Shown: in pieces, positions 1,503 through 61,425 of the stretch
Layout of the letters: each line of letters opens with the position of its first letter
Numbering within the stretch: the stretch's first letter is position 1
DNA from: Escherichia phage vB_EcoM_G10400
Strand: one strand, 5' to 3'
Length of the DNA: 64,000 bases
Sequence record: MK327937.1
Made by a program: the position numbers and the translations under genes
The notes under the pieces: model-generated
What the model was told of the DNA's origin: nothing
What the model saw: only the letters and a program-made list of their open reading frames with translations
Databases searched by the model: none

Positions 1503-2055
1503 ATTTTTCTAATAATAAATCGCTTTCAAAATTGGGATTTTCTACGAATTTATCAAAAAGATCATCAACAATAGTTAAGATATTCTTTTTACTAAGAATA
1601 CGTTTATTTTCATGCTTCGTTTCAGAATCAACTATAAGAGTAAAGAAATATTTCTTGCCCTGAAATTTTACAGTAGTATCAATATAAAATAAATTTGACT
1701 TTTGTAAATTACGTTTAAACCATGTGTCACTTAAACTATAAATACCGAGATAATCATAATCGTCGTTTAAATAACATACTGTCCATTCAGGAGAAATGAA
1801 ATCAGTAAATTCAACATCAAAATCACACGTCAATGAATGAATTGATTCAATACTGTTAATAAGTATTCCAGGACGTATTAAAGACTTTTTACCTTTATAA
1901 AATCCAGAAAGACTTTCATCAGTTTCATATGAAGAACCCCAATAATAATTACGTCCTTCTGCCATACGTTTAAGAGCATTTAGTAATTGGTCTGGAACAT
2001 CAACCTGTCTTTGAAACTCTTCAAACATTGAATTGAAATCACTTTGCATTTTCAT
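1450..2055 (-). CDS. hypothetical protein
   Basis: 201-aa ORF in a co-oriented gene array; followed by GC hairpin ggggcccgaagcccc (~2077-2091). Confidence 0.5.
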   Translation of the reverse strand: MKMQSDFNSMFEEFQRQVDVPDQLLNALKRMAEGRNYYWGSSYETDESLSGFYKGKKSLIRPGILINSIESIHSLTCDFDVEFTDFISPEWTVCYLNDDYDYLGIYSLSDTWFKRNLQKSNLFYIDTTVKFQGKKYFFTLIVDSETKHENKRILSKKNILTIVDDLFDKFVENPNFESDLLLEKFVKECREYVKTITIPSK

Positions 2056-2097
2056 TCCTATTTACTCCAAGTAATAGGGGCCCGAAGCCCCTTATCA

Positions 2098-2691
2098 TTA
2101 TTTCAGAGAATTAATATATTCCTGAACATCGGCAGAGGTAGTTTCAACCCCAGAAATATTACCATTAAAGGTTTCAACTCGAGCAAGAGTATCTTCAATA
2201 TCAACCTTAGTCAGTGCTGCAATTTCAACTACATCATCAGCAGTACTAATTCCAAGGGCATTCGCTGCACGAGTTTCACGGATATATTCCAATTTAACCG
2301 CAAGTTCTTGACGAGCATCATCTAACTCAACTACTTTCTTGGCGATTTCAATTCGCATTTCAGCATAACCGTCAGCCTTAGTAGTCAACTGCTCAGCTGT
2401 TCGACGATATAGTAAACCGAGTTTAGCATGCATTGTTACATCTTGACCTTCGGAAAGAAGCTTGCGAATTTCACGCTCTTTTGATTCGGCTTGCTTATTC
2501 TTTTCGACAATAAGTTCACGAATACGCTTTTCTTCATTAATAGATTTAACGGAAGCAGTTTTTAGATCTTTAATCTTATCAAGTAGTTTTGCTGCCGCAG
2601 CAGTATACTGTTCTTCAACAGATAGATTTTTAGCCATAGCAGAACCAAGTTTAGTGCGAATAAACTCAACAATTTTCTTCAGTGTGTTCAT
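2098..2691 (-). CDS. hypothetical coiled-coil protein (heptad-rich; possibly PspA/IM30-like, unverified)
   Basis: 197-aa ORF rich in K/E/A/L heptads; preceded on minus strand by a GTTTAC -35 and TATTAT -10 early-promoter-like element. Confidence 0.5.
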
Positions 2692-2748
2692 AGTATTTCC
2701 TTAGGTTGGTATAATTAGATAATATCACGTTTCTAATAGATTGTAAAC

Positions 2749-3084
2749 TTATTCTTCGTCTAGCTCGTCGATAAAGGCGTTGATGGCCTCGATAACGGCA
2801 TCATTGATAGCTAATAAAATAAAATCATCGTCAGTACCTTTAGAAGATTCTAAAGCATTGATATATGCTTGGTTGGCGAGTTCCCAAGCCTTTTTAAAAT
2901 AAGGAGCTTCATCATCAGGACAAATATCCCGCACGCCTTCAAAGATACGTTTGGCATAATCTAACACCCATTGTACAGGCATGTTTTGAGAACGTTCGTT
3001 AAACTCTTTAAAGTCCTTAGATTCAAAAAGCTCTTCAGGATAATTATTTCTATTACAAAAAGCTTTGCTAAAATTACGTTTCAT
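2749..3084 (-). CDS. hypothetical protein
   Basis: 111-aa acidic ORF; early-promoter cassette upstream at 3111-3140. Confidence 0.5.
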   Translation of the reverse strand: MKRNFSKAFCNRNNYPEELFESKDFKEFNERSQNMPVQWVLDYAKRIFEGVRDICPDDEAPYFKKAWELANQAYINALESSKGTDDDFILLAINDAVIEAINAFIDELDEE

Positions 3085-3140
3085 AATGTTTTCCTCATTT
3101 GTATAGGCTCATAATATCTCAATCATGAGCCTATGTAAAC

Positions 3141-3416
3141 TTATTTCATATTATTGAAATATTCTTCTGCGATTTCATCGTTATCATGGTAAACTTTAGA
3201 AGACAGTTTAACATAACCTTCAGCAGTGAACATGTTAATCACAACCTTTACAGTATACCACTGACCATCTTCATTACCCATTACTGCGTAAGTTTCAAAC
3301 ATCGGATGATCAGGACCGATAACTTTAATATCATTCACTGTACGACCGAAATCTTCTGAAACACATTTCATAAAGAAGTTGAACAGTTCGCCGTAATTAT
3401 CCATTTCGTTCTCCAA
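3141..3416 (-). CDS. hypothetical protein
   Basis: 91-aa ORF; early-promoter cassette upstream at 3448-3477. Confidence 0.5.
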   Translation of the reverse strand: MENEMDNYGELFNFFMKCVSEDFGRTVNDIKVIGPDHPMFETYAVMGNEDGQWYTVKVVINMFTAEGYVKLSSKVYHDNDEIAEEYFNNMK

Positions 3417-3605
3417 GTTGTTTTCTGTATCAGTAGTTGATAGTTGTATAGTACCATGGAAGAACAGGGATGTAAACAGTTTTGTGAAAAAATTTTTAAA
3501 AAGTTTTAGGGAATTCTAGGGTCAGGAGGGGCAATTAAAAGATAGGATAATATATTATAAAGGGTAGAAACTAAATGATGCCTAGAGAGGCCCGGAAAGG
3601 CCTAG

Positions 3606-3641
3606 ATACCAAAAAGCCCCAACCTTTTGGTCGGGGCTAAG
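3606..3641 (-). terminator. intrinsic terminator hairpin, copy A of a 36-bp repeat
   Basis: ataccaaaaagccccaaccttttggtcggggctaag: on minus strand a GC stem (gcccc/ggggc) followed by a T-run; 35/36 identical to 4165-4200. Confidence 0.6.
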
Positions 3642-3645
3642 AATG

Positions 3646-4119
3646 TTATTTGATTTGTTTAGCAGACCAAATGCGGTCTTTAATAATTTTTTGGATGTCT
3701 TCAACATACTCAAGAGAGTGAGCATGTGGGTTATCTTTGAAACTATAAGCACGAGCTAGCTTTTGGCCTTCAGTTTTGATTACTAAAAGCTCTTTAAGGA
3801 TAGCTTCATATTTAGAGATAATTCCTTTAACAATATTTTTTTCTTGTGCAGCTTTAGGATCTGCTTTAGGAGCAGGTTTACCTGAAGCCTTTGCAAAAGC
3901 AGCGCCAGTAGCAACTAAACTTTTCCAGGCCATACTAACTGCATTTCCCGTAAATCCTTCCGCTTTCATGTCGCGTGCGAACTGGAATCGCGATTCATCA
4001 GAAGCATCTTTATAAGAATATTTACCCGCTGCAATGGCTGCTTTTGCGACAGCTTGAATTTCGGTGCTAGATGCTTCATTTAACACCGCTTCATTTAAAA
4101 ATTGAGTATATGATTTCAT
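3646..4119 (-). CDS. candidate capsid-targeted internal protein (IP-like; N-terminal CTS-like MKSYTQFLNEA with LxE cleavage motifs)
   Basis: 157-aa ORF whose N-terminus resembles the T4 internal-protein capsid-targeting sequence (MKTYQEF-like) with two LNE/A putative gp21 sites; own TATAAATA late promoter on minus strand at 4160-4167; flanked by 36-bp terminator repeats. Confidence 0.5.
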   Translation of the reverse strand: MKSYTQFLNEAVLNEASSTEIQAVAKAAIAAGKYSYKDASDESRFQFARDMKAEGFTGNAVSMAWKSLVATGAAFAKASGKPAPKADPKAAQEKNIVKGIISKYEAILKELLVIKTEGQKLARAYSFKDNPHAHSLEYVEDIQKIIKDRIWSAKQIK

Positions 4120-4159
4120 CTTATTTCCTGTTTTAATTTGTAGATATTTAATATACTAA

Positions 4160-4167
4160 TATTTATA
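4160..4167 (-). promoter_or_regulatory. T4-type late promoter (TATAAATA) for ORF 3646-4119
   Basis: Plus strand tatttata = TATAAATA on minus strand, ~40 nt upstream of the ATG at 4119. Confidence 0.5.
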
Positions 4168-4200
4168 CCAAAAAGCCCCAACCTTTCGGTCGGGGCTAAG
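4165..4200 (-). terminator. intrinsic terminator hairpin, copy B of the 36-bp repeat (end of tRNA/stable-RNA transcript)
   Basis: ataccaaaaagccccaacctttcggtcggggctaag; hairpin plus T-run on minus strand. Confidence 0.6.
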
Positions 4201-4510
4201 CCTTGCGGCAACCTTGTCGGGGTTCCACCTGCTAAGGCAAGTGTTTGTACGAAACGCCGGGATTCGAACCCGGTTATTAAGCAGTTGACGCTACTCAATA
4301 TTTTTAAAAGGCCATATCTCGACCATATCCGAACGTTCCGTCAAAAACACTACTCGGCTTACGGCAAAGATATTTCCTCGAATCGATAATTCGGTGCGCC
4401 GTTTCTGCTGTGATGTAAGAGGGCATCAATAAACGCAAAGATTATTAACGCAATTCCTTACTCAGGGAACATCAGTCCGACGACTTGCCGGTAGCGACCC
4501 GGCTTCTTGT
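4201..4510 (-). ncRNA. tRNA-like stable RNA(s), by position equivalent to T4 species 1/2 RNAs (rnaC/rnaD); boundaries approximate
   Basis: ~310 nt with no credible ORF between tRNA-Arg and the terminator; contains a T-arm-like element (rc of gggattcgaacccgg) but no complete cloverleaf. Confidence 0.35.
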
Positions 4511-4511
4511 C

Positions 4512-4587
4512 TGGTCGAGGCAGTAGGGATCGAACCTACGACCCAGGACTTAGAAGGTCCTTGCTCTTCCTTCTGAGCTATGCCCCG
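4512..4587 (-). tRNA. tRNA-Arg (anticodon UCU), CCA encoded
   Basis: Minus-strand CGGGGCATAGCTCAG...CCTTCTAAGTCC...GGTTCGATCCCTACTGCCTCGACCA; 7-bp acceptor stem, T-loop, anticodon loop CTTCTAA. Confidence 0.85.
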
Positions 4588-4590
4588 TAA

Positions 4591-5256
4591 TTAAAATTTC
4601 ATTTTTCGACCTTTAAACCATCCTTCTGGAATTGGGTCAGTTTTCTTAATACGTTTAGAAACTTTTTCATCTAATGAATGAATCCACATCATGCCAAATT
4701 GGGAATTCTTTTCACCTTGTTGGTGTTTATTTCTGGCGTGAGATTCTTTCATTTTATTAATAGTTTCAGGAGTATGGGTCTTACCCAAGAAAGATTTAGT
4801 ATTTAAAAATTTCTCTCTATACTTAGGATTATCCCAAAGCTGTTTAAACCTTTCTGAACCCATTTTACGATATTTTTCTTTAAGGTCTGGGTCGTTCTCA
4901 AATCTGGTTTTAAAAGCGGCAGCTCCTTTTAAGGAAGCTTCTTTCTTTTTATCCAAATATTCTTTAGTGTTTAAATGGTCCCAACCACCTTCACCACCTA
5001 ATTTCAAATTATAAACATCAGAGCGCTTTAAAAACTCTTCAGTCACAATATTCTTTTCTGACTCAAACATAGAGGTTTTATCGTCAAAGAACTCTAATAT
5101 TTCTTTAGAAAAATTTTCTATACCATACTTATCTTGGGCTCTTTTTAATAATTTACCAGAACCCATATATCCATCATCTAAATTTTCGGTAGAATGAGCG
5201 CCTATATAGATTTTATTATTAATTTTATTTGTTATTTTATAAATGTAATGGAACAT
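4591..5256 (-). CDS. segB: GIY-YIG homing endonuclease (SegB-like) inside the tRNA cluster
   Basis: 221-aa ORF, N-terminus MFHYIYKITNKINNKIYIGAHS...GYMGSG (GIY-YIG motif); position between tRNA-Ile and tRNA-Arg as in T4. Confidence 0.8.
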   Translation of the reverse strand: MFHYIYKITNKINNKIYIGAHSTENLDDGYMGSGKLLKRAQDKYGIENFSKEILEFFDDKTSMFESEKNIVTEEFLKRSDVYNLKLGGEGGWDHLNTKEYLDKKKEASLKGAAAFKTRFENDPDLKEKYRKMGSERFKQLWDNPKYREKFLNTKSFLGKTHTPETINKMKESHARNKHQQGEKNSQFGMMWIHSLDEKVSKRIKKTDPIPEGWFKGRKMKF

Positions 5257-5297
5257 AAATATCTCCTATTTCTAAGAGTATTTATGTTCTCAAAATA

Positions 5298-5369
5298 TGG
5301 CCCTGGGTGGAATTGAACCACCATCTGGCGATTATGAGTCGCTTGCTTGAACCTTCCAGCTACAGGGCC
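5298..5369 (-). tRNA. tRNA with CAU anticodon (Ile, lysidine type as in T4, or Met)
   Basis: Minus-strand GGCCCTGTAGCTGG...GCGACTCATAATCGCC...GGTGGTTCAATTCCACCCAGGGCCA; anticodon loop CTCATAA; coordinates +/-2. Confidence 0.75.
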
Positions 5370-5375
5370 TTGATA

Positions 5376-5448
5376 TGCTGATTGACGGAATCGAACCGCC
5401 GACGTCCTCATTACAAGTGAGGTGCTCTACCTACTGAGCTAAATCAGC
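5376..5448 (-). tRNA. tRNA-Thr (anticodon UGU)
   Basis: Minus-strand GCTGATTTAGCTCAGTAGGTAGAGCACCTCACTTGTAATGAGG...GGTTCGATTCCGTCAATCAGCA. Confidence 0.85.
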
Positions 5449-5455
5449 GAAATTA

Positions 5456-5542
5456 CGGAGGCGATAGGATTTGAACCTATGAGTCGCCGGAGCGACTGCC
5501 GGTTTTCAAGACCGGTGCATTAAACCACTCTGCCACGCCTCC
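5456..5542 (-). tRNA. tRNA-Ser (anticodon UGA), long variable arm
   Basis: Minus-strand GGAGGCGTGGCAGAGTGG...GGTCTTGAAAACC...GGTTCAAATCCTATCGCCTCCG; abuts tRNA-Pro like the T4 Pro-Ser dimeric precursor. Confidence 0.85.
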
Positions 5543-5544
5543 AG

Positions 5545-5618
5545 TCTCCGCGGCAGGATTTGAACCTACGACATTCTGCTCCCAAAGCAGATGCTCTACC
5601 AAACTGAGCTACACGGAG
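5545..5618 (-). tRNA. tRNA-Pro (anticodon UGG)
   Basis: Minus-strand CTCCGTGTAGCTCAGTTTGGTAGAGCATCTGCTTTGGGAGCAGA...GGTTCAAATCCTGCCGCGGAGA. Confidence 0.85.
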
Positions 5619-5630
5619 TAAATTAAATTT

Positions 5631-5702
<72 letters not shown>

Positions 5703-5708
5703 AAACTT

Positions 5709-5795
5709 TGGTACGAGAAGTGGGACTCGAACCCACAAGGAAATCATTCCGCAGCATTTTAAGTGCTGTGCCTTTACCAATTTGACCATTCTCGC
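5709..5795 (-). tRNA. tRNA-Leu (anticodon UAA), long variable arm, CCA encoded
   Basis: Minus-strand GCGAGAATGGTCAAATTGGTAAAGGCACAGCACTTAAAATGCTG...GGGTTCGAGTCCCACTTCTCGTACCA. Confidence 0.85.
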
Positions 5796-5801
5796 GCTAT
5801 A

Positions 5802-6434
5802 TTATTTATTACGTGAAAAAGACTGTTCTATCAATTCTGGACACTTTCGTTCTATCCATTTTCTAGCTTTTTGTGGGCTTATACCTATTATTTTAGCAGC
5901 TTTACTAACCCATCCAAATTTAGAATAATCGATTTTAACTAATTCTTCGTAAATTTCATCAGTTAAAATCTTTTCATTAATATTTACCAGTAAATGATAT
6001 AATTTATTATCATTAGCAATTTTAATGAATCTTTTATAGTTTCCGCCTTTACTTAAACCTAATGAAGTAATTGCAGATGATATAGTAGCCGAATTTAATA
6101 GTGCGTTTAAAATTTCTTCATCACTAACATTATAACGCTTTTTATTATTTTTAATATTTTTACCAGCAAAAGTATCAGTTTGCGAATGGCAATTTGGACA
6201 TAATAATCTTAAATTTGATTTAAGATGATTTTTGTTATTTCCATCAATATGGTCTAATTGCAGAACAATATGCTTATTTTGCCATTTTGAAATTTTACAA
6301 ATTGCACACTCATATGGAAAAATATTTTCTTTTATTATTTTGTCTTTCAGCTTTCCTGTACTAAAATTTGGATGTTTTCCTTCAAAAATTTCAGCTAATT
6401 TAGTATCCATAATATGATTCCCAATTATTAACAA
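5802..6434 (-). CDS. HNH homing endonuclease-like protein, directly upstream of the tRNA cluster
   Basis: 210-aa ORF with HNH motif region LQLDHIDGNNKNHLKSNLRLLCPNCHSQTD and paired CxxC residues; stop codon 6 nt from the tRNA-Leu 5' end. Confidence 0.7.
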   Translation of the reverse strand: MLIIGNHIMDTKLAEIFEGKHPNFSTGKLKDKIIKENIFPYECAICKISKWQNKHIVLQLDHIDGNNKNHLKSNLRLLCPNCHSQTDTFAGKNIKNNKKRYNVSDEEILNALLNSATISSAITSLGLSKGGNYKRFIKIANDNKLYHLLVNINEKILTDEIYEELVKIDYSKFGWVSKAAKIIGISPQKARKWIERKCPELIEQSFSRNK

Positions 6435-6520
6435 AGGCTCTCAAACAAGAACCCTTGATGATAGAGGGTATTAATCAGTGCGGTATGAGTTAATAATAAC
6501 AAATAATTCTTAAAGCATAT

Positions 6521-6808
6521 TTACCATTTATGATAATACATATTTACGATGCATTCAAGGCCCAAAGGATTCCTGAAAATATCATATTCAAGAGGACCTT
6601 TTTCTGTTTCAATAAAGAAATCAAAATTTACTGTATTAAATTTACGGTCTTCCTTCACTAATTTAACTTGGGAAGATGAACGGTCAACATAAACCTTTTC
6701 AACTTCAAAACACGTTAAAACGCCATAATCATCAATCAAGGCTTTAGCCGCGTCTTGATCATATTTATATCCATTTTCAATGGACGATACTTTTGCATAA
6801 AGAATCAT
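6521..6808 (-). CDS. hypothetical protein (probable ATG start at 6808; the track start at 6814 is GTG)
   Basis: ~95-aa ORF beginning MILYAKVSSIENG; its first 7 codons are duplicated as a gene-start fragment at 7241-7261. Confidence 0.5.
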   Translation of the reverse strand: MILYAKVSSIENGYKYDQDAAKALIDDYGVLTCFEVEKVYVDRSSSQVKLVKEDRKFNTVNFDFFIETEKGPLEYDIFRNPLGLECIVNMYYHKW

Positions 6809-6810
6809 TA

Positions 6811-7191
6811 TCACACTCCGTAGTCTATCTTGACCAATCTACCTTTGTAGTAGCCAAAGTTCTTTGGAAAGGCATCATACTCAAAGAAATCACGGTCAAG
6901 CGTTCTGCATTCATCACCATCAACATCATTATAGAGCTTTTGCAAATCAGATTTAAAAAGCTCCTTATCCTCAACTGGCTCTGCTTTGTGCATCACAACC
7001 ATGAGACCAAATCTGTTTGAGTATGCTATTGGGCATAGGTATTTGTTATCATACCCCTTCCACTGACCTTCTGTAAGATTGCTGAGCATACCCTGCACGA
7101 AGTGTTTCCATGTCTTGGGGATAGGGAACTTAATAGCATACTTATGTGTTAGTAGTACCCATCTGGTTCCACCCGATTTAATTAATTTCAT
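6811..7191 (-). CDS. hypothetical protein
   Basis: 126-aa ORF in a co-oriented array; 4-bp overlap with the downstream gene. Confidence 0.5.
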   Translation of the reverse strand: MKLIKSGGTRWVLLTHKYAIKFPIPKTWKHFVQGMLSNLTEGQWKGYDNKYLCPIAYSNRFGLMVVMHKAEPVEDKELFKSDLQKLYNDVDGDECRTLDRDFFEYDAFPKNFGYYKGRLVKIDYGV

Positions 7192-7265
7192 AGTCTCAGC
7201 TACCTCAATATTAATTTAAGCAATATCATTCCTGTAAGGTAGTACTTTAGCATAAAGAATCATTG

Positions 7266-7676
7266 TCAGCCTCTATCAACGATAGCATGAGTATGGGCAT
7301 TTACGATTTGCCACCAGTCGAAACGATTGAAACCATAATCTGGTTTATTTTCATTTTCTTTAATGATATCACGCAGCTTATCTTCTGTTTCAGCATACGC
7401 AATTAAATCATCATATCCACCACAAGGGTAATAATTATCACCTGCGAATAAAAGAAAATTTACCTTAGATGGATTTACATAATAATGGTCTTTAGGATAT
7501 TTAGTTCCTCTCCAATCAGTTACTTCAACATAACGGTAAGAAAATCCATTTTTACTTTCAATCCAACTCCACGCTTCAAAAGGAGTATTAAAAACTTTAT
7601 CAGGTATTAAATTACCTTCAAAATGAGAAGGATTTGCATAATCCCCAGCATAAACATAATATTCGTTAATACTCAT
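7266..7676 (-). CDS. hypothetical protein
   Basis: 136-aa ORF; start is adjacent to the upstream gene's stop (7677). Confidence 0.5.
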   Translation of the reverse strand: MSINEYYVYAGDYANPSHFEGNLIPDKVFNTPFEAWSWIESKNGFSYRYVEVTDWRGTKYPKDHYYVNPSKVNFLLFAGDNYYPCGGYDDLIAYAETEDKLRDIIKENENKPDYGFNRFDWWQIVNAHTHAIVDRG

Positions 7677-7862
7677 TTATTCACCTTTAGAAATTTTATC
7701 CATAACGATAGCAATTAAACCAATTAAAAATGCTACTACAAGTGAAAACGCATTTTCTGCTGTAGTTAATAATCCGCATATAAATCCAACAAACATTGAA
7801 AAACTAAAAGCAGAAGCAGAAATTGCAATAGCAACATTTCGAATTAATTCACAGCGTTTCAT
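7677..7862 (-). CDS. hypothetical small membrane protein
   Basis: 61-aa ORF, largely hydrophobic (FSFSMFVGFICGLLT...LVVAFLIGLIAIV); early-promoter cassette upstream at 7892-7921. Confidence 0.45.
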   Translation of the reverse strand: MKRCELIRNVAIAISASAFSFSMFVGFICGLLTTAENAFSLVVAFLIGLIAIVMDKISKGE

Positions 7863-7938
7863 TTTATTCTCCTCAGTAGTTGATAGGGTAATAGTATCAC
7901 AACTAAAACCCTATGTAAACAACTTTGTGAAAAATTTA

Positions 7939-56876: not shown

Positions 56877-56880
56877 CAAT

Positions 56881-56898
56881 GGGGACCTTTCGGTCCCC
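56881..56898. terminator. bidirectional terminator between gene 54 (+) and the alt region (-)
   Basis: ggggacctttcggtcccc perfect hairpin followed by a T-run. Confidence 0.65.
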
Positions 56899-56904
56899 AT
56901 ATTT

Positions 56905-57195
56905 TTATTTACGGAATGAAATAAAAGCAGCAACTGAAGCAACTAAACTGTCTTCAATATAAACCTCAATTTTTACCGGAGCTTCTGACTCAAATTTACC
57001 TGTTACTACACCTTGGAAAATACTTTCAGTCTGTTCTGGCTTTGAAAAATTTTCAGAAGGAAAAATTCCGAACTTTTTATCTGTTCCAAAAATTTTGATA
57101 AATTCATCGTAAACTGCTTCATTAAAAGCATTATCAGCAGGAATAACTCCTTCAACTACAAGTTCTTGACCTAAAAAGCGCAAAGAAGATTTCAT
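56905..57195 (-). CDS. hypothetical protein (alt.-3-like by position)
   Basis: 96-aa ORF downstream of the alt paralogs. Confidence 0.5.
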   Translation of the reverse strand: MKSSLRFLGQELVVEGVIPADNAFNEAVYDEFIKIFGTDKKFGIFPSENFSKPEQTESIFQGVVTGKFESEAPVKIEVYIEDSLVASVAAFISFRK

Positions 57196-57255
57196 TTTGT
57201 GTTCCTCATGTTATGTCAGTAAGACTACTATAACACAACACGAGGGACTTGTAAA

Positions 57256-59313
57256 CTACATTTTGAACTTTTTAGACATTCCGTTGATGTTAACCAAAGA
57301 AGCCAAGATTTGAGAAACTTCATTTTCCTCTTCTTTTGATTCTTCTACAAGGAATTGATTAAATCCAGCCATTGGACGAACTTCACCAGTTTCCATTAGA
57401 TGGTCTCCATCATATACTGATTCTTCTAATTGTTCAGAAGGAGGAACGATTGTACCTTCGATTAGATACTTGTTATAAGCAGTTTCTTTCATAAAGTACG
57501 TACTTACTTTATTAATCTTCAGTAAAATTCCACGTGGTAGAATAACTTCAGCTTCTGATGGAAATCCTGATAAATGACCTGGAACGATAACTTTGATTCG
57601 CTCAGCTCCTTTAATTATCATACCCACGCTAGTTTCTGCATCTTCATTAGCATATGTAGAATGACTACCCATATGCATCAAATCTTCTGCATCAACGGAA
57701 CCTTCTCCTTCACCAGAAAATACTGCGCCGGAATCATCTAGAGCCATATAGTTTTTACCATGCTCACCGAAGATATTTGGTTTAAGCGATGTGGATACGA
57801 AGTTCTTGAAATAGAACATTTTATTTTCAATGTTATGACGCAAAGTTTTAAAGGTAACTTCTTGCCCACGGTAAAGTGTAGTTCCTGGAGGAAGAACTGA
57901 TCCTTTGGCAAAGGCAGAATCTAACGTCTCGATGTGCTTAATAGCTCGTTCCATGTATTCTTCACGGGTAGAATCTGGTTTACCCAAAAGGAACGAGTTC
58001 ATTTCAACATATGAATCTGCACAATAATCTTCAATTACATCAGATTCAGCCTGAGTCAGTCCTTTTGGAGCTACTTCGGTGCTTGCGTATTCATATGCCT
58101 GGGCAGCAGATTCATTAATCAATTTATAAATGCCATTCATGACAAATTGAATAATAGCTGTCTTTTCATCTGGTGTGGTTTTAGAACCTTTAACTAAATC
58201 ATTAATAATTTTCTTAATAACATCAAAGCTATTAGAAATATTAATGTCAGCAAGATCGCTTAAAATTTTATCAGTTTTATAATCAAAGAATTCTTTATTC
58301 TTTAAATATTCTTGAGAACCTTGATATGTTATATCGCTCTGCAACTTGATAGATGGATCACGTAAACGTGCATGGGCCAATGCAATATGATTTCGGAAGC
58401 TTTCTAGTTCATAATCGTTAGATTTAAAACGAGAAGCACTTCTCATACCACCGATAGCTCCTTTGCTGAAGTTTGAACCAATCTGGATAACGCCAGAGTT
58501 CATCGGACCTTCTGCTTTATATACCGGAACTTTAGATTCAAACTCTTGATATTTCTTGGCAGCAAAGCTATCACCCTGAAGTGAAGCATCAACAGTAGAA
58601 TATTGAGCTTGTGCTGCTAATCGACGACTTATTTTAGTTTTCTGAATAACAGCTTGGTCCGTGCGCTTATCATTTTCTAAAGCAATAGAAGCAGCAACAG
58701 CGACAGCTTTAGGAACAGCATTTCCTGTTTTAACGTCTACATAAACATCACCGACCTTTGATTCAACTTTTGTGAATAACTCAGTTGAAATAGGAGGTAC
58801 ACCTGGAATGTCTTCTAAATTGGCATTTTTACGGTAAACCATAATATATGCATATTTCTTATCATAGTCCCAGATTTCCTTTAAAAGAACATATCGACCT
58901 GCTCCTTTAGTACGTACTAAACGGTCAGCAATAACTTGCATTTGACGAGCTGCGCCATTTGTTTTACTTTTTAGTACGCGGAATAGGCATGCGTCGATTT
59001 TATACTGTTTCATTGTTTGAAGAGCAGTATCAAAAACGGCATTAATGACACCAATTGGATTTCCACCCAAGTTTTTAAGCTTAACTAATGATAGTTTCTC
59101 ATTAACACCTATCATTACGATATGCATCATTTTATCGCCTGGCTTAACGTTTTTATTCGTATCACCACCAGAGGTGTATGTACAAAATCTAAATCCAGGA
59201 AGCACGCTTTCTTCGCCGGCTTGAATAGCAAAAATTTGTGGTATTTTATGCTTAGGATTTAAGTTAACAACCGGCGCCGAAGCGCCGTCAAATAATTCTG
59301 TAATAAGTTCCAT
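57256..59313 (-). CDS. Alt-like ADP-ribosyltransferase paralog (capsid-packaged injected effector family)
   Basis: 685 aa; N-terminus MELITELFD shared with the adjacent ORF; ART-like motifs TTLYRGQ, FVSTSL, SEAEVILPRG (R / STS / E-x-E). Confidence 0.7.
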   Translation of the reverse strand: MELITELFDGASAPVVNLNPKHKIPQIFAIQAGEESVLPGFRFCTYTSGGDTNKNVKPGDKMMHIVMIGVNEKLSLVKLKNLGGNPIGVINAVFDTALQTMKQYKIDACLFRVLKSKTNGAARQMQVIADRLVRTKGAGRYVLLKEIWDYDKKYAYIMVYRKNANLEDIPGVPPISTELFTKVESKVGDVYVDVKTGNAVPKAVAVAASIALENDKRTDQAVIQKTKISRRLAAQAQYSTVDASLQGDSFAAKKYQEFESKVPVYKAEGPMNSGVIQIGSNFSKGAIGGMRSASRFKSNDYELESFRNHIALAHARLRDPSIKLQSDITYQGSQEYLKNKEFFDYKTDKILSDLADINISNSFDVIKKIINDLVKGSKTTPDEKTAIIQFVMNGIYKLINESAAQAYEYASTEVAPKGLTQAESDVIEDYCADSYVEMNSFLLGKPDSTREEYMERAIKHIETLDSAFAKGSVLPPGTTLYRGQEVTFKTLRHNIENKMFYFKNFVSTSLKPNIFGEHGKNYMALDDSGAVFSGEGEGSVDAEDLMHMGSHSTYANEDAETSVGMIIKGAERIKVIVPGHLSGFPSEAEVILPRGILLKINKVSTYFMKETAYNKYLIEGTIVPPSEQLEESVYDGDHLMETGEVRPMAGFNQFLVEESKEEENEVSQILASLVNINGMSKKFKM

Positions 59314-59316
59314 GAT

Positions 59317-61374
59317 TTATCCTTGAACGAACTTGTAAGGCATGTTTGCAATATCTATACAAGACGCAATAATTCCAAGAGATGATTCTACTTTCTGTTT
59401 AACATTTGATGAAACAAATGATGCAAAGTCAACTCTGTCTTCTACTTCAATATCACCTGTCATTGTAACTACTTCGCCGGTTTCCATTAGACGGTCACCG
59501 TCATAAATTACCGATTCGGTGAGTTCTTCTGTGGTCATAACTTCAGCTTGAATAAGCTTGTTGTTAGTTTTAACTGTTCCATCATTGTAAGATGCATCGG
59601 TTATTTTATTAACTTTGACCATTAATCCACGTGGCAAAATGACTTCCATTTCATTTGAAGGTGCTAAACTTCCACCTGGTAAAACAACATTGACTTTATC
59701 AGCCCCAGTAATAACCCATCCAATTCCAACTAAATTATCGCTAGAATTTACTAGTCCTTCATCAGTTTTATCAATAGAAACACTTAAACGCTTTTCGTCT
59801 GGTAAAACACCCACAGATGAATCAGTCATCCAGGTACCAAAAATATTTGGATATAATGATGTTGACACAAAGTTTCTAAAATAAAAAACTCGATTTTTTA
59901 CCATTGCTTCATATATTGAAGGTAACATTCGTTGTGAACGATACAAAGTAATACCTTTTGGTAATCGTTCACCATTTTTAAAGGCTGAATCTAAATTATC
60001 AATAGCTTTTTCTATGTCAGATGCTGTCAAAATACTTGTACGCTCATCTGGATTATATAATCCCAAAAGAGCATTATTTATATCTACATATCCTGAACCT
60101 ACGTATTCACGAATTCCGCGTTTTTGCGCCGGTGTGTATTTAGATGAATCTTTATTTTCGACTATAGGATGTAATGACCATCCAGCGGTAAGAGCATATC
60201 CACGTAATTCTCTTCGAATAATCTTTGTTTTTATTGCATTCCAAGAATTTTGTACTAACTCATTTGCAGCATCTTGGTTTAAATGCGAATGTTTGTTAAT
60301 ATTTCTTTCAAACCAAGCACCTTTATATTTTTCTAAGGTATCATCGACGATAGAAGCAATAGTTTCTAAAGTTTTTATTGAAGTAATAGATTCTTTTTTT
60401 AATTTTTCTAAAGCTTTATTTTTTATTTCTGCATTAATAATGGATTCTTTATCTTCAGGAATTATAGAAGCTTCTCTGAATGCCATCCCAGCTGTAACAC
60501 TGCTAAGAGCATTCTCTAGTGCAAATCCTGAAGTAGAAATTACCGTTAATTCATTAGAATCAGAAATTAAAGGCGCGTCCGCTGGTTTATTTAATTCTGC
60601 CGCTGAAGCCTCAAATTTTTGAAACATCGGTGTTTCAAATCTAGAAGATTCCAATGACTGACTTTGTGCAATTGCTCTACGGGAAATTTTAACTTTAACG
60701 ATTACAGCTTGGTCAGAACGTTTATCATTTTCTTGTGCAATAGATGCTGCAATTGCCTCATTTTTAGTTACTTGAGCTCCAGTATCTTTATTGATATAAA
60801 CATCACCGACCTTCGATTCAACTTTAGTAAAGAGCTCGGTACTAATTTCTGGAACTCCTGGAATGTCTTCTAGTGATACATTTTTGCGATGTATAAGAAT
60901 ATATGCATACTTTTTATCATAATCCCAGAGTTCCTTAAGAAGGACGTATCTGCCACCTGAACGACTACGGATAAGTCTATCAGCAATAACTTGAATTTGT
61001 CGAGCTTGACCAGCGGTTTTAGACTTAAGAATACGAAGCATACAGGCATCAATTTTATACTGACGCATTGTTTGCATCGCAACAGTAAAAACTGAATTGA
61101 TATAATTAATTGGGCTTGGACCAAGACCTTTTAATTTAGCAATTGAACCTTTAGCAGTTAATGTAAAAGGAACAATATGCATCATTTTATCGCCCATCTT
61201 TAAATCGCGATTAGTATCACCTCCAGATGTATAGGTACATAAACGAAAGCCTGGTTGTTCAATTGCATCATCAACATGAACTGAAAAAATTTGCGGTATT
61301 TTCTTCTTTGGATTTAAGTTTGTAATCGGAAGAGTAGTATCTTCGTCAAATAATTCTGTAATAAGTTCCATCAT
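59317..61374 (-). CDS. alt: Alt ADP-ribosyltransferase (adjacent to gene 30, as T4 alt)
   Basis: 685 aa; MMELITELFDEDTTLPITNL...; ART motifs ITLYRSQ, FVSTSL, EMEVILPRG; TATAAATA late promoter on minus strand at 61395-61402. Confidence 0.8.
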   Translation of the reverse strand: MMELITELFDEDTTLPITNLNPKKKIPQIFSVHVDDAIEQPGFRLCTYTSGGDTNRDLKMGDKMMHIVPFTLTAKGSIAKLKGLGPSPINYINSVFTVAMQTMRQYKIDACMLRILKSKTAGQARQIQVIADRLIRSRSGGRYVLLKELWDYDKKYAYILIHRKNVSLEDIPGVPEISTELFTKVESKVGDVYINKDTGAQVTKNEAIAASIAQENDKRSDQAVIVKVKISRRAIAQSQSLESSRFETPMFQKFEASAAELNKPADAPLISDSNELTVISTSGFALENALSSVTAGMAFREASIIPEDKESIINAEIKNKALEKLKKESITSIKTLETIASIVDDTLEKYKGAWFERNINKHSHLNQDAANELVQNSWNAIKTKIIRRELRGYALTAGWSLHPIVENKDSSKYTPAQKRGIREYVGSGYVDINNALLGLYNPDERTSILTASDIEKAIDNLDSAFKNGERLPKGITLYRSQRMLPSIYEAMVKNRVFYFRNFVSTSLYPNIFGTWMTDSSVGVLPDEKRLSVSIDKTDEGLVNSSDNLVGIGWVITGADKVNVVLPGGSLAPSNEMEVILPRGLMVKVNKITDASYNDGTVKTNNKLIQAEVMTTEELTESVIYDGDRLMETGEVVTMTGDIEVEDRVDFASFVSSNVKQKVESSLGIIASCIDIANMPYKFVQG

Positions 61375-61394: not shown

Positions 61395-61425
61395 TATTTA
61401 TAAAATTAAAGGCCCGAAGGCCTTT
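61395..61425 (-). promoter_or_regulatory. late promoter (minus TATAAATA at 61395-61402) for alt, plus hairpin 61408-61425 ending the gene-30 transcript
   Basis: Plus strand tatttata = minus TATAAATA; aaaggcccgaaggccttt perfect hairpin. Confidence 0.55.

What the first reader, a model, noticed from the sequence alone, without database searches (positions are those of the whole stretch)
57256..61374. Tandem full-length Alt-like ADP-ribosyltransferase paralogs
Two adjacent 685-aa minus-strand ORFs share an N-terminus (MELITELFD...), conserved blocks (QYKIDAC.LR.LKSKT, RYVLLKE.WDYDKKYAYI, NLEDIPGVP.ISTELFTKVESKVGDVY) and C-terminal ART-like motifs (LYR.Q; FVSTSL.PNIFG; E.EVILPRG), but diverge strongly in the middle and around the catalytic domain. 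T4 Alt is packaged in the head, injected with the DNA, and ADP-ribosylates host RNA polymerase. Two intact diverged copies suggest two injected effectors with different targets or specificities. My memory is that T4 itself has only short alt.-1/alt.-2 ORFs at this position, but I cannot verify that.
Basis: partly seen in the sequence, partly recalled or inferred. Interest (0 to 1): 0.6.

Follow-up and report, generated by a model that had tools for sequence, protein, structure and literature searches.

The report
Two tandem Alt enzymes; T4 lost one
This T4-like phage carries the classical injected host-modifying enzyme Alt plus an intact, diverged second copy next to it, a known and already annotated arrangement of which phage T4 itself keeps only a deleted stub.

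Summary
Two adjacent minus-strand ORFs (59317-61374 and 57256-59313) encode Alt-type ADP-ribosyltransferases that are 41% identical (E = 1e-157). The upstream one is the ortholog of T4 Alt (98.8%). The downstream one ("A2") is the intact form of the gene that T4 retains only as alt.-1/alt.-2: T4 has a 1-nt frameshift plus a 1,699-bp deletion between two 9-nt direct repeats.

The locus is a modular array of one to three genes: a shared N-terminal module with exchangeable effector parts. Natural A1::A2 chimeras exist.

None of this is new as a kind. Hundreds of GenBank records annotate both genes, Nolan 2006 noted alt duplications, and a 2026 paper makes the same "diverged targets" suggestion. 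Packaging, activity and targets of A2 remain untested. Interest is low to moderate.

The parts
61408..61425 (-). G+C-rich stem-loop (AAAGGCCTTCGGGCCTTT) directly after the alt.1 stop codon, upstream of the late promoter motif
   Evidence: Read directly from the sequence. Nolan 2006 predicted a terminator upstream of alt in 5 of 6 T4-like genomes (PMC1524935).
61395..61402 (-). T4 late-promoter motif TATAAATA, about 20 nt upstream of the A1 start codon. Probable promoter of the A1-A2 late transcription unit.
   Evidence: Exact match. The window has 24 matches against 10.4 expected. Position read. Function is inferred.
59317..61374 (-). A1 = alt, the ortholog of T4 Alt (98.8% aa identity). The likely true start is the second ATG at 61371 (684 aa). 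Catalytic R478, S503-T-S505, E574-M-E576. gp21 motifs ITE 4-6 and LTE 617-619.
   Evidence: Pfam PF03496 E = 1e-35. phrog_802 E = 6.5e-262. Model m522e4e308672, pLDDT 70.
59320..59324 (-). AAGGA Shine-Dalgarno for A2, lying inside the last codons of A1. The A1 stop (59319-59317) and the A2 ATG (59313-59311) are 3 nt apart.
   Evidence: Read from the sequence. There is no late-promoter motif between the genes. Co-transcription and coupling are inferred.
57256..59313 (-). A2 = full-length Alt paralog (685 aa), the intact form of T4 alt.-1/alt.-2. In T6 it is annotated 'alt.-2'.
   Evidence: 41% identical to A1. T4 alt.-1 and alt.-2 are 95-98% identical to A2 aa 1-56 and 62-116. Pfam PF03496 E = 4.5e-20. 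phrog_802 E = 5e-256. dN/dS 0.05-0.12.
58609..59313 (-). A2 N-terminal module (aa 1-235), an alpha/beta domain. Pfam PF26846 Tevenvirinae_ADPRT according to precomputed hits. Includes the ITE-6 cleavage motif. 68% identical to the A1 module.
   Evidence: PF26846; identity; motif; model: strands and helices at aa 12-227, pLDDT about 66-87.
58084..58608 (-). A2 disordered linker and helical region (aa 236-410). This is the most divergent part between the paralogs (13-29% identity per 40-column window).
57448..58083 (-). A2 ART domain (aa 411-622). Catalytic R482 (57868-57870), S507-T-S509 (57787-57795), E587-A-E589 (57547-57555). ARTT-loop F584. Low-confidence insertion at aa 518-554.
57259..57447 (-). 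A2 C-terminal tail (aa 623-685). It holds the L-E-E|S motif (aa 629-632), aligned to T4 Alt's LTE-619 gp21 cleavage site, followed by the near-invariant YDGDxLMETGE block. Predicted C-terminal propeptide.
   Evidence: Cleavage sites of T4 Alt come from PMC5694885. Cleavage of A2 is inferred.
58966..58974 (-). Left copy of the 9-nt direct repeat CTAAAAAGT. T4 has a 1,699-bp deletion between this copy and the right copy.
57267..57275 (-). Right copy of the 9-nt direct repeat CTAAAAAGT (breakpoint of the T4 deletion).
   Evidence: The T4-type junction is present in 91 phage records.
57227..57255 (-). Sigma-70 / T4-early-like promoter (TTTACA-17-TATAGT with an upstream TG) between A2 and alt.-3. 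It marks the downstream boundary of the A1-A2 unit.
   Evidence: 10 of 12 consensus positions matched. Consensus match only.
56905..57195 (-). alt.-3 homolog (96 aa, DUF5498). Conserved downstream neighbour of the array.
   Evidence: Pfam PF17602 E = 1.4e-64. Synteny in T4, T6, Dhakavirus and L004.

Best explanation
This is the alt locus of a Tequatrovirus (T4-like phage) in its two-gene state.

The two genes. The upstream gene is canonical alt. The downstream gene (A2) belongs to an old, separately conserved Alt lineage that T4 has lost by deletion.

Expression. Both are most likely transcribed late from the TATAAATA promoter upstream of alt, and A2 is translated from its own Shine-Dalgarno 3 nt after the alt stop codon.

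Architecture. Each protein has four parts:
- a short N-terminal propeptide ending in ITE;
- a conserved alpha/beta N-terminal module of about 230 aa;
- a divergent helical region;
- an R-S-ExE ADP-ribosyltransferase domain, followed by a C-terminal propeptide after an L-x-E motif.

Proposed mechanism. By analogy with T4 Alt, both are built into the prohead core and trimmed at both ends by the gp21 protease. A2 would become about 69 kDa. They are then ejected into the cell with the DNA and transfer ADP-ribose from NAD+ to arginine residues of host proteins at the very start of infection. The effector parts are only about 23% identical and differ at the ARTT-loop recognition position, so the two enzymes probably modify different, or only partly overlapping, host proteins.

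Shown here: homology, orthology, intact motifs, purifying selection, ART fold, distribution, the T4 deletion, and modular recombination.

Inferred: late co-transcription, packaging, cleavage, injection, arginine specificity, and distinct targets.
For: - Paralogy and architecture.
- A1 is T4 Alt (98.8%), and T4 alt.-1/alt.-2 are a remnant of A2 (95-98% identity). The remnant has a -1 frameshift in an A-run and a 1,699-bp deletion between CTAAAAAGT repeats.
- Catalytic R / S-[T/A/S]-S / E-x-E are conserved in all 20 sequences examined. The second E of the motif is the residue whose mutation (Alt E577A) abolishes T4 Alt activity (PMC11404850; the numbering offset is discussed).
- gp21 motifs are conserved at both mapped T4 Alt cleavage positions. 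My T4 numbering reproduces the published 68.2 kDa mature Alt.
- Purifying selection on A2: dN/dS 0.046 (vs T6), 0.119 (vs L004) and 0.047 (Dhakavirus pair). Alt itself gives 0.050.
- Position-2 effectors form one clade across Tequatrovirus, L004 and Dhakavirus (49-66% identity to each other, 23-27% to position-1 effectors).
- The ARTT residue at -5 is aromatic in 12 of 12 position-2-clade proteins and in none of the position-1 clade.
- The late promoter motif lies only upstream of A1, with a 3-nt gap and an SD for A2.
- Prevalence: the A2 effector is in about 401 records.
Against: - I found no experimental data on A2: no virion proteomics, activity assay or target (literature searches).
- T4 and 90 other records with the same deletion junction do without it, so it is dispensable under at least some conditions.
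- ECML-134 does without the A1 effector. That fits partial redundancy as well as it fits distinct roles.
- Both structural models have only moderate confidence (pLDDT 70-72). The loop that differs most between the paralogs is modelled below pLDDT 50.
- The ARTT argument rests on knowledge of C3/iota-type toxins, not on Alt itself.
- Promoter and SD assignments are motif matches only.
Confidence: 0.68

Rival explanations
1. Redundant back-up copy. A2 is an active, packaged ADP-ribosyltransferase that modifies essentially the same host proteins as Alt (RNA polymerase alpha and others). The two genes persist only for dosage or robustness.
For: - Same architecture, same catalytic motifs and same E-x-E (arginine-type) signature.
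- Either effector can be lost in nature: T4 lacks A2, and ECML-134 lacks the A1 effector.
- T4 Alt is reported to be non-essential (PMC5694885).
Against: - The effector parts are only 23-27% identical, yet each lineage has been conserved separately since before the Tequatrovirus/Dhakavirus split.
- There is a systematic ARTT-loop difference: aromatic in 12 of 12 position-2 proteins and in none of position 1.
- The helical region and the STS-to-ExE insertion share almost no sequence.
- Pure redundancy rarely maintains dN/dS of 0.05 in both copies.
Confidence: 0.17
2. Mainly a structural head-core component. A2 is kept for a role in the prohead core or in DNA ejection through its conserved N-terminal module, and its ART domain is inactive or irrelevant.
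For: - The N-terminal module is the most conserved part (dN/dS 0.014-0.034).
- It is shared by all array members.
- Alt is described as a T4 core protein in addition to being an enzyme (PMC11404850).
Against: - The catalytic residues are invariant in all position-2 proteins across genera.
- The ART domain itself is under purifying selection (dN/dS 0.02-0.18).
- Phages with one, two or three copies all exist, so no fixed structural stoichiometry is required.
Confidence: 0.08
3. Expressed enzyme that is not packaged. Like ModA and ModB, A2 acts from inside the infected cell after synthesis rather than being injected.
For: Packaging of A2 has never been shown. A T4-early-like promoter exists nearby, although it lies downstream of A2 and faces alt.-3.
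Against: - A2 shares with Alt the whole N-terminal module and both propeptide cleavage motifs.
- It has no promoter motif of its own and sits 3 nt behind a late gene.
- As far as I recall, ModA and ModB are short proteins of about 200 aa without this module. I did not test that here.
Confidence: 0.07

Closest known systems
Bacteriophage T4 Alt (gpAlt, NP_049811; NAD+--arginine ADP-ribosyltransferase packaged in the head)
   Same: - A1 is its ortholog (98.8% identity).
- A2 shares the full domain order, and its N-terminal module is 68% identical.
- A2 also has the R / STS / ExE residues, both gp21 cleavage motifs, the same PHROG (802), the same Pfam pair (PF26846 + PF03496) and the same genomic slot.
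   Different: - A2's effector part (aa 240-625) is only 23% identical to Alt's.
- It carries a longer STS-to-ExE insertion.
- It has an aromatic residue (F584) at the ARTT -5 position where Alt has Pro.
- No activity, target or packaging data exist for A2.
T4 alt.-1 / alt.-2 (NP_049810, NP_049809) and T6 'alt.-2' (AXN58232)
   Same: - T4 alt.-1 and alt.-2 are 95-98% identical to A2 residues 1-56 and 62-116.
- T6 AXN58232 is the 685-aa ortholog of A2 (98% identity in the effector part).
   Different: - T4's annotation calls these ORFs 'a duplication of the first part of gene alt'. T6's annotation calls the full-length gene 'an apparent insertion in alt.-2'.
- The comparison here reverses the direction of the event. 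The full-length gene is ancestral, because it is present across genera. T4 carries a frameshift plus a 1,699-bp deletion between 9-nt repeats.
Tandem Alt paralogs described in other T4-like phages
   Same: These are the same phenomenon:
- 44RRORF187c and RB49ORF183c (Nolan et al. 2006, PMC1524935).
- SHFML-11 and 6phi13 (PMC13600099), where it is essentially the same gene pair: SHFML-11 is 100% identical to the window over the A1/A2 junction. The paper reports 43.3% identity and makes the same 'expanded target range' suggestion.
   Different: Those reports are annotation-level remarks. They do not link the paralog to T4's pseudogene, its cross-genus orthology, its selection regime or its modular recombination.
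C3 / iota / VIP2 / Vis-type R-S-E ADP-ribosylating toxins (Pfam PF03496)
   Same: - The profile aligns the ARTT region with C3-type 4xsg.
- The E-x-E signature matches arginine-specific members such as Vis and iota. That assignment comes from established knowledge of the family.
   Different: - The phage proteins carry about 410 extra N-terminal residues and propeptides for capsid delivery.
- They are delivered by DNA ejection, not by secretion or a binary-toxin pore.
Polymorphic toxin systems (Rhs/CDI-type; Zhang et al. 2012, PMC3482391). A functional analogy only.
   Same: - A conserved N-terminal part is combined with divergent C-terminal enzymatic 'warheads'.
- The genes sit in tandem arrays.
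- There is evidence of recombination that swaps the C-terminal parts.
   Different: - No immunity gene sits between or after the genes; the spacing is 3 nt.
- All array members are full-length genes with their own start codons, not silent cassettes.
- Delivery is through the phage capsid.
- This is not a member of that class.

Membership tests
T4 Alt family (Tevenvirinae head-packaged ADP-ribosyltransferases; PHROG 802) | N-terminal Tevenvirinae_ADPRT module (PF26846) followed by a C-terminal ADPrib_exo_Tox domain (PF03496) in one polypeptide of about 680-710 aa | tested here: met
   - PF03496 hits for both ORFs.
- PF26846 is recorded for all homolog clusters and for both tandem genes of L004.
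- phrog_802 matches end to end: E = 6.5e-262 for A1 and 5.2e-256 for A2.
- The local Pfam copy did not return PF26846, so that hit rests on the precomputed annotations.
T4 Alt family (Tevenvirinae head-packaged ADP-ribosyltransferases; PHROG 802) | Catalytic R / S-T-S / E-x-E residues | tested here: met
   - A1: R478, S503-T-S505, E574-M-E576.
- A2: R482, S507-T-S509, E587-A-E589.
- These are conserved in all aligned relatives.
T4 Alt family (Tevenvirinae head-packaged ADP-ribosyltransferases; PHROG 802) | Genomic position between gene 30 (DNA ligase)/alt.1 and alt.-3/gene 54 | tested here: met
   The window order is ligase, alt.1, A1, A2, alt.-3, gp54, gp48, gp29. T4, T6, HP3, MN04, ESCO10, fDHCT2 and L004 have the same order.
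T4 Alt family (Tevenvirinae head-packaged ADP-ribosyltransferases; PHROG 802) | Propeptides removed by prohead protease gp21 at ITE-6 and LTE-619 (PMC5694885) | tested here: inconclusive
   The motifs are present at the aligned positions in both proteins: A1 has ITE 4-6 and LTE 617-619, A2 has ITE 4-6 and LEE 629-631. Actual cleavage cannot be tested with sequence tools.
T4 Alt family (Tevenvirinae head-packaged ADP-ribosyltransferases; PHROG 802) | About 40 copies packaged in the head and injected with the DNA | not testable with these tools
   No virion proteomics for A2 turned up in the literature searches.
T4 Alt family (Tevenvirinae head-packaged ADP-ribosyltransferases; PHROG 802) | [quoted passage not shown] | not testable with these tools
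   Only the E-x-E signature and the closest structural match, the arginine-specific toxin Vis, point that way.
R-S-E (C3/VIP2/iota-like) ADP-ribosyltransferase fold | ART fold with an NAD-binding split beta-sheet core and an N-terminal helical subdomain | tested here: met
   [not shown]
R-S-E (C3/VIP2/iota-like) ADP-ribosyltransferase fold | ARTT loop with an aromatic residue five positions before the catalytic Glu (the substrate-recognition turn, from established knowledge of C3 and iota toxins) | tested here: met
   - Met for A2 (F584) and all 12 position-2-clade proteins.
- Not met for A1/T4 Alt (Pro571) or for other position-1 proteins (H, Q, I).
- The C3-type chain 4xsg aligns its Tyr to this column.
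Polymorphic toxin systems | Cognate immunity gene immediately downstream of each toxin domain | tested here: not met
   A1 and A2 are separated by 3 nt. A2 is followed after 60 nt by alt.-3, which is present whatever the effector set. No small intervening ORFs are present.
Polymorphic toxin systems | Conserved N-terminal part with recombining, highly divergent C-terminal enzymatic domains | tested here: met
   - T4 vs T6 position-1 genes: N-terminus 100%, effector 50%.
- The T6 effector is 82% identical to Dhakavirus fDHCT2, against a flanking-gene baseline of 59-68%.
- A1::A2 chimeras occur at five different crossover points.

The most novel reading that the evidence does not exclude
The alt locus could be a capsid-delivered 'polymorphic effector' array.

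- The conserved N-terminal module of about 230 aa would be a delivery handle for the prohead core.
- Behind it, at least three ancient classes of ADP-ribosyltransferase warheads would be shuffled, duplicated (one to three genes per phage) and lost, in an arms race with host targets or defence systems.
- On this reading the position-2 class is the most conserved and most prevalent injected ART of T-even phages. It has a canonical ARTT aromatic residue and a target other than the RNA polymerase alpha Arg265 modified by T4 Alt, for example a defence or toxin-antitoxin protein.
- The model phage T4 would be an atypical deletion mutant that has hidden this enzyme from 50 years of biochemistry.
Probability: 0.3. 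Interest if true: 0.6.

Novelty: already known. Interest (0 to 1): 0.33.

Why it matters
Work on phage ADP-ribosylation (Alt, ModA, ModB, RNAylation) is done almost entirely in T4. In the phage collection searched here, T4's Alt-type effector is the minority form (about 173 records). The enzyme T4 has deleted is carried by about 401 of roughly 500 Tequatrovirus-like records, and it is conserved as a separate lineage into Dhakavirus.

If A2 is packaged and active, most T-even phages inject two (some three) different ADP-ribosyltransferases, and the picture of early host takeover drawn from T4 is incomplete.

Natural variants already provide a genetic series for finding A2's targets:
- T4 has A1 only.
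- ECML-134 has the A2 effector only.
- T6 and this phage have both.
- fDHCT2 has three.

This is an incremental refinement of a known system, not a new kind of system.

Tried and rejected
- **Assembly duplication.** Rejected: the copies are 41% identical, synonymous sites between them are saturated (dS about 1.4), and the pair occurs in hundreds of independent genomes.
- **Decaying pseudogene.** Rejected: A2 is an intact ORF in about 400 records with dN/dS 0.05-0.12.
- **Recent gene conversion as the cause of the similar N-termini.** Not supported within Tequatrovirus: dS is 1.4 in the N-terminal module. The genus-wise clustering of N-terminal modules therefore reflects older conversion, module swapping or co-adaptation. 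I could not tell these apart.
- **Chimeras as short-read assembly artefacts.** This was a real concern for P0003-P0006, which come from Logan/ENA assemblies. It is partly resolved because the finished genome of isolated phage ECML-134 has a single chimeric gene. That junction occurs in only 3 records, and vB_EcoM_SCS4 has the same length and may be the same phage. The four metagenomic crossovers remain unverified.
- **Single-sequence phmmer of A2 against PDB.** No hit. Only the profile search and the fold searches reached ART structures. No solved Alt structure was found.
- **Second large protein search with a profile.** It returned the same 263 proteins and added no diversity, so both AlphaFold runs used shallow alignments of 13-14 sequences and reached only pLDDT 70-72.
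- **Literature.** Searches for experimental data on the paralog found nothing.
- **Breakpoint script.** My first breakpoint script mis-anchored. I read the junction by eye from the three printed sequences.

Full report
**1. The observation**

The ORF list shows two minus-strand ORFs of 685 codons at 59317-61374 and 57256-59313. They are separated by 3 nt (TAA-ATC-ATG), and an AAGGA Shine-Dalgarno lies inside the end of the first gene.

BLASTP between them gives 41% identity and E = 1e-157. Both hit Pfam ADPrib_exo_Tox (PF03496) well above threshold.

Identity is uneven along the proteins: 68% in residues 1-235, 23% in residues 240-625, and 46% in the C-terminal tail.

The upstream ORF begins ATGATGG. 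T4's annotation corresponds to the second ATG at 61371.

**2. What the genes are**

The neighbours are DNA ligase gp30, alt.1 (Phage_blade), alt.-3 (DUF5498), gp54, gp48 and gp29. A megablast of the region finds 529 phage records, nearly all Tequatrovirus-like coliphages. The best matches are 98-99% identical and are often annotated "Alt-like RNA polymerase ADP-ribosyltransferase (x2)".

The upstream protein (A1) is 98.8% identical to T4 Alt.

T4 has alt.-1 (61 aa) and alt.-2 (67 aa) in place of the downstream gene. These are 95% and 98% identical to residues 1-56 and 62-116 of the downstream protein (A2), but only 56-62% identical to T4 Alt itself.

At the DNA level the T4 remnant differs from the window in two ways:
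- It has lost one A in an A-run, which splits the reading frame into alt.-1 and alt.-2.
- It has a 1,699-bp deletion whose ends lie in two copies of the 9-nt direct repeat CTAAAAAGT (window 58974-58966 and 57275-57267).

T4's GenBank note calls these ORFs "a duplication of the first part of gene alt". T6's record calls its full-length gene "an apparent insertion in alt.-2". The data here say the reverse: the full-length gene is the ancestral state, and T4 is a deletion derivative.

**3. Is A2 a working gene?**

- **Motifs.** In an alignment of 17 Alt-type proteins (20 with fDHCT2), every sequence keeps the Arg motif, S-[T/A/S]-S and E-x-E. In A2 these are R482, S507-T-S509 and E587-A-E589. Mutation of the second Glu of this motif abolishes T4 Alt activity. 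The paper calls it E577A, which matches E576 of the GenBank protein if counting starts from the first of the two ATGs (PMC11404850).
- **Selection.** Nei-Gojobori estimates give dN/dS = 0.046 for A2 against its T6 ortholog, 0.119 against the 74%-identical ortholog on contig L004, and 0.047 between two Dhakavirus orthologs. A1 against T4 Alt gives 0.050.
- **Structure.** The AlphaFold model of A2 (pLDDT 72) shows an N-terminal alpha/beta domain (about 12-227), a disordered linker, a helical region (250-470) and an ART core (475-622). Residues 518-554, between STS and ExE, form a poorly modelled insertion. The A1 model (pLDDT 70) has the same layout.

**4. Delivery**

T4 Alt is reported to be present at about 40 copies in the head. 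gp21 trims it after ITE-6 and after LTE-619, giving a 68.2-kDa mature protein (PMC5694885).

My numbering reproduces this: ITE at 4-6, LTE at 617-619, and 68.1 kDa for residues 7-619.

A2 has ITE at 4-6 and L-E-E|S at the aligned C-terminal position (629-632), followed by the near-invariant YDGDxLMETGE block. This predicts a 69.2-kDa mature form.

A T4 late-promoter motif (TATAAATA) lies about 20 nt upstream of the A1 start, behind a stem-loop that follows alt.1. There is none between A1 and A2. A T4-early-like promoter separates A2 from alt.-3, and a bidirectional terminator closes the unit.

Late co-expression, packaging, processing and injection of A2 are therefore plausible. They are inferred, not shown.

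**5. Distribution and history**

- **A2.** tblastn with the A2-specific part (aa 237-685) finds it at 95% or higher identity in 401 phage records. There is then a gap down to about 50% identity, which is Dhakavirus.
- **A1.** The same test with the A1-specific part finds the T4-Alt type at 90% or higher in only 173 records. Many Tequatroviruses, T6 included, have a position-1 gene only about 50-55% identical in that part.
- **T4 deletion.** The T4-type deletion junction is in 91 records.
- **Cross-genus pairs.** Dhakaviruses MN04 and ESCO10 and the unclassified contig L004 also have two tandem genes in the same slot.
- **Effector tree.** In neighbour-joining trees of the effector part, genes group by position across genera. 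Position-2 genes are 49-66% identical to each other and 23-27% identical to position-1 genes. So the paralog lineage predates the Tequatrovirus/Dhakavirus split.
- **N-terminal tree.** The N-terminal module groups by genus instead: 65-71% between paralogs within a genome, 41-47% between genera.
- **Module exchange.** T4 and T6 position-1 proteins have identical N-terminal modules and 94%-identical tails, but 50%-identical effector parts. T6's effector is 82% identical to that of Dhakavirus-like fDHCT2, well above the 59-68% identity of the flanking genes. That points to lateral exchange of the effector part.
- **Three genes.** fDHCT2 has three tandem genes. Its middle gene carries a third effector class, 24-32% identical to all the others, with intact catalytic motifs.
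- **Chimeras.** Single-gene loci also exist. ECML-134, a finished genome, encodes one protein whose first ~470 nt match A1 (98%) and whose remainder matches A2 (97-100%). Four further A1::A2 chimeras with different crossover points occur in metagenomic or SRA assemblies. The ECML-134 junction is rare, found in 3 records.
- **No recent conversion.** Within this genome, synonymous sites between the two N-terminal modules are saturated (dS about 1.4). There has been no recent gene conversion here.

**6. Specificity**

In C3- and iota-type toxins, the residue five positions before the catalytic Glu sits in the ARTT loop and is an aromatic substrate-recognition residue. This is established knowledge of the family, and the C3-type chain 4xsg aligns its Tyr to this column.

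All 12 position-2-clade proteins have Phe or Tyr there; A2 has F584. Position-1 proteins have Pro, His, Gln or Ile, and T4 Alt has P571. The third class has Ser.

Together with the unrelated helical regions and STS-to-ExE insertions, this is the best sequence-level argument that the paralogs recognise different substrates. It is an inference.

**7. Comparison with what is known, and novelty**

Both proteins meet every sequence-testable criterion of the T4 Alt family and fall in the same PHROG.

The tandem arrangement is already annotated in hundreds of records. Alt duplications next to alt were noted in 2006, including a full-length one in phage 44RR (PMC1524935).

A 2026 paper describes the very same pair in SHFML-11 and 6phi13 (43.3% identity) and suggests an expanded target range (PMC13600099). 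SHFML-11 is 100% identical to the window across the A1/A2 junction.

I found no experimental study of the second paralog.

The finding is therefore real and correctly interpreted, but already known as a feature. This analysis adds:
- the direction and mechanism of the T4 deletion;
- the cross-genus orthology of the paralog and the purifying selection on it;
- its higher prevalence than the T4-Alt-type effector;
- the modular one-to-three-gene structure of the locus;
- the ARTT difference between the two effector lineages.

**8. Verdict**

Observation confirmed. Interpretation supported, with its functional part still inferred. Novelty: already known. Interest is low to moderate (0.33). The main value is the reminder that T4 is atypical at this locus and that natural variants offer a ready genetic series for finding the second enzyme's targets.

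Noticed in passing
window 60014-60622 (+), antisense to A1: A 245-codon stop-free stretch (listed ORF 202 aa) runs antisense to alt. T4 alt has the same stretch, but T6's position-1 gene (longest 90 codons) and A2 (longest 67) do not. A synonymous-codon shuffle of A1 gives a mean of 119 codons (sd 16), and about 0.2% of shuffles reach 202. It is probably chance given the number of genes in the window, and there is no evidence of expression.
   Followed up: partly
L010 (Escherichia phage fDHCT2, OR427838) 1677-7937: Three tandem full-length Alt genes (694, 681 and 707 aa) occupy the same slot. The middle one carries an effector part only 24-32% identical to every other Alt examined, with LWR / STS / EQE motifs intact. 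This is a third effector class.
   Followed up: partly
L007 (ECML-134) 2790-4850; also P0003-P0006 (L005, L006): Single-gene alt loci encode A1-N-terminus::A2-effector chimeras, with at least five different crossover points (about aa 40, 100, 157, 170 and 215). One is in a finished genome; the others are in short-read assemblies and could be artefacts.
   Followed up: yes
L008 (phage T6) 3518-5611 compared with T4 alt: T6 'Alt' is not the same enzyme as T4 Alt. The N-terminal 235 aa are identical and the tail is 94% identical, but the effector part is only 50% identical. It is closer (82%) to Dhakavirus position-1 effectors.
   Followed up: partly
[not shown]
   Followed up: no
window 57227-57255 (-) and 56879-56900: A T4-early-like promoter (TTTACA-17-TATAGT with TG) sits between A2 and alt.-3. 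A 9-bp-stem bidirectional terminator sits between alt.-3 and gene 54.
   Followed up: no
window 61371-61374: The alt ORF starts with two consecutive ATG codons. GenBank T4 Alt numbering uses the second. The published catalytic mutant 'E577A' (PMC11404850) fits numbering from the first, since E576 is the second Glu of E-x-E in the 682-aa protein.
   Followed up: partly
window 60075-60082 (-): A second exact TATAAATA motif lies inside A1, about 760 nt upstream of the A2 start. I did not examine whether it is an internal late promoter for A2 or a chance match.
   Followed up: no
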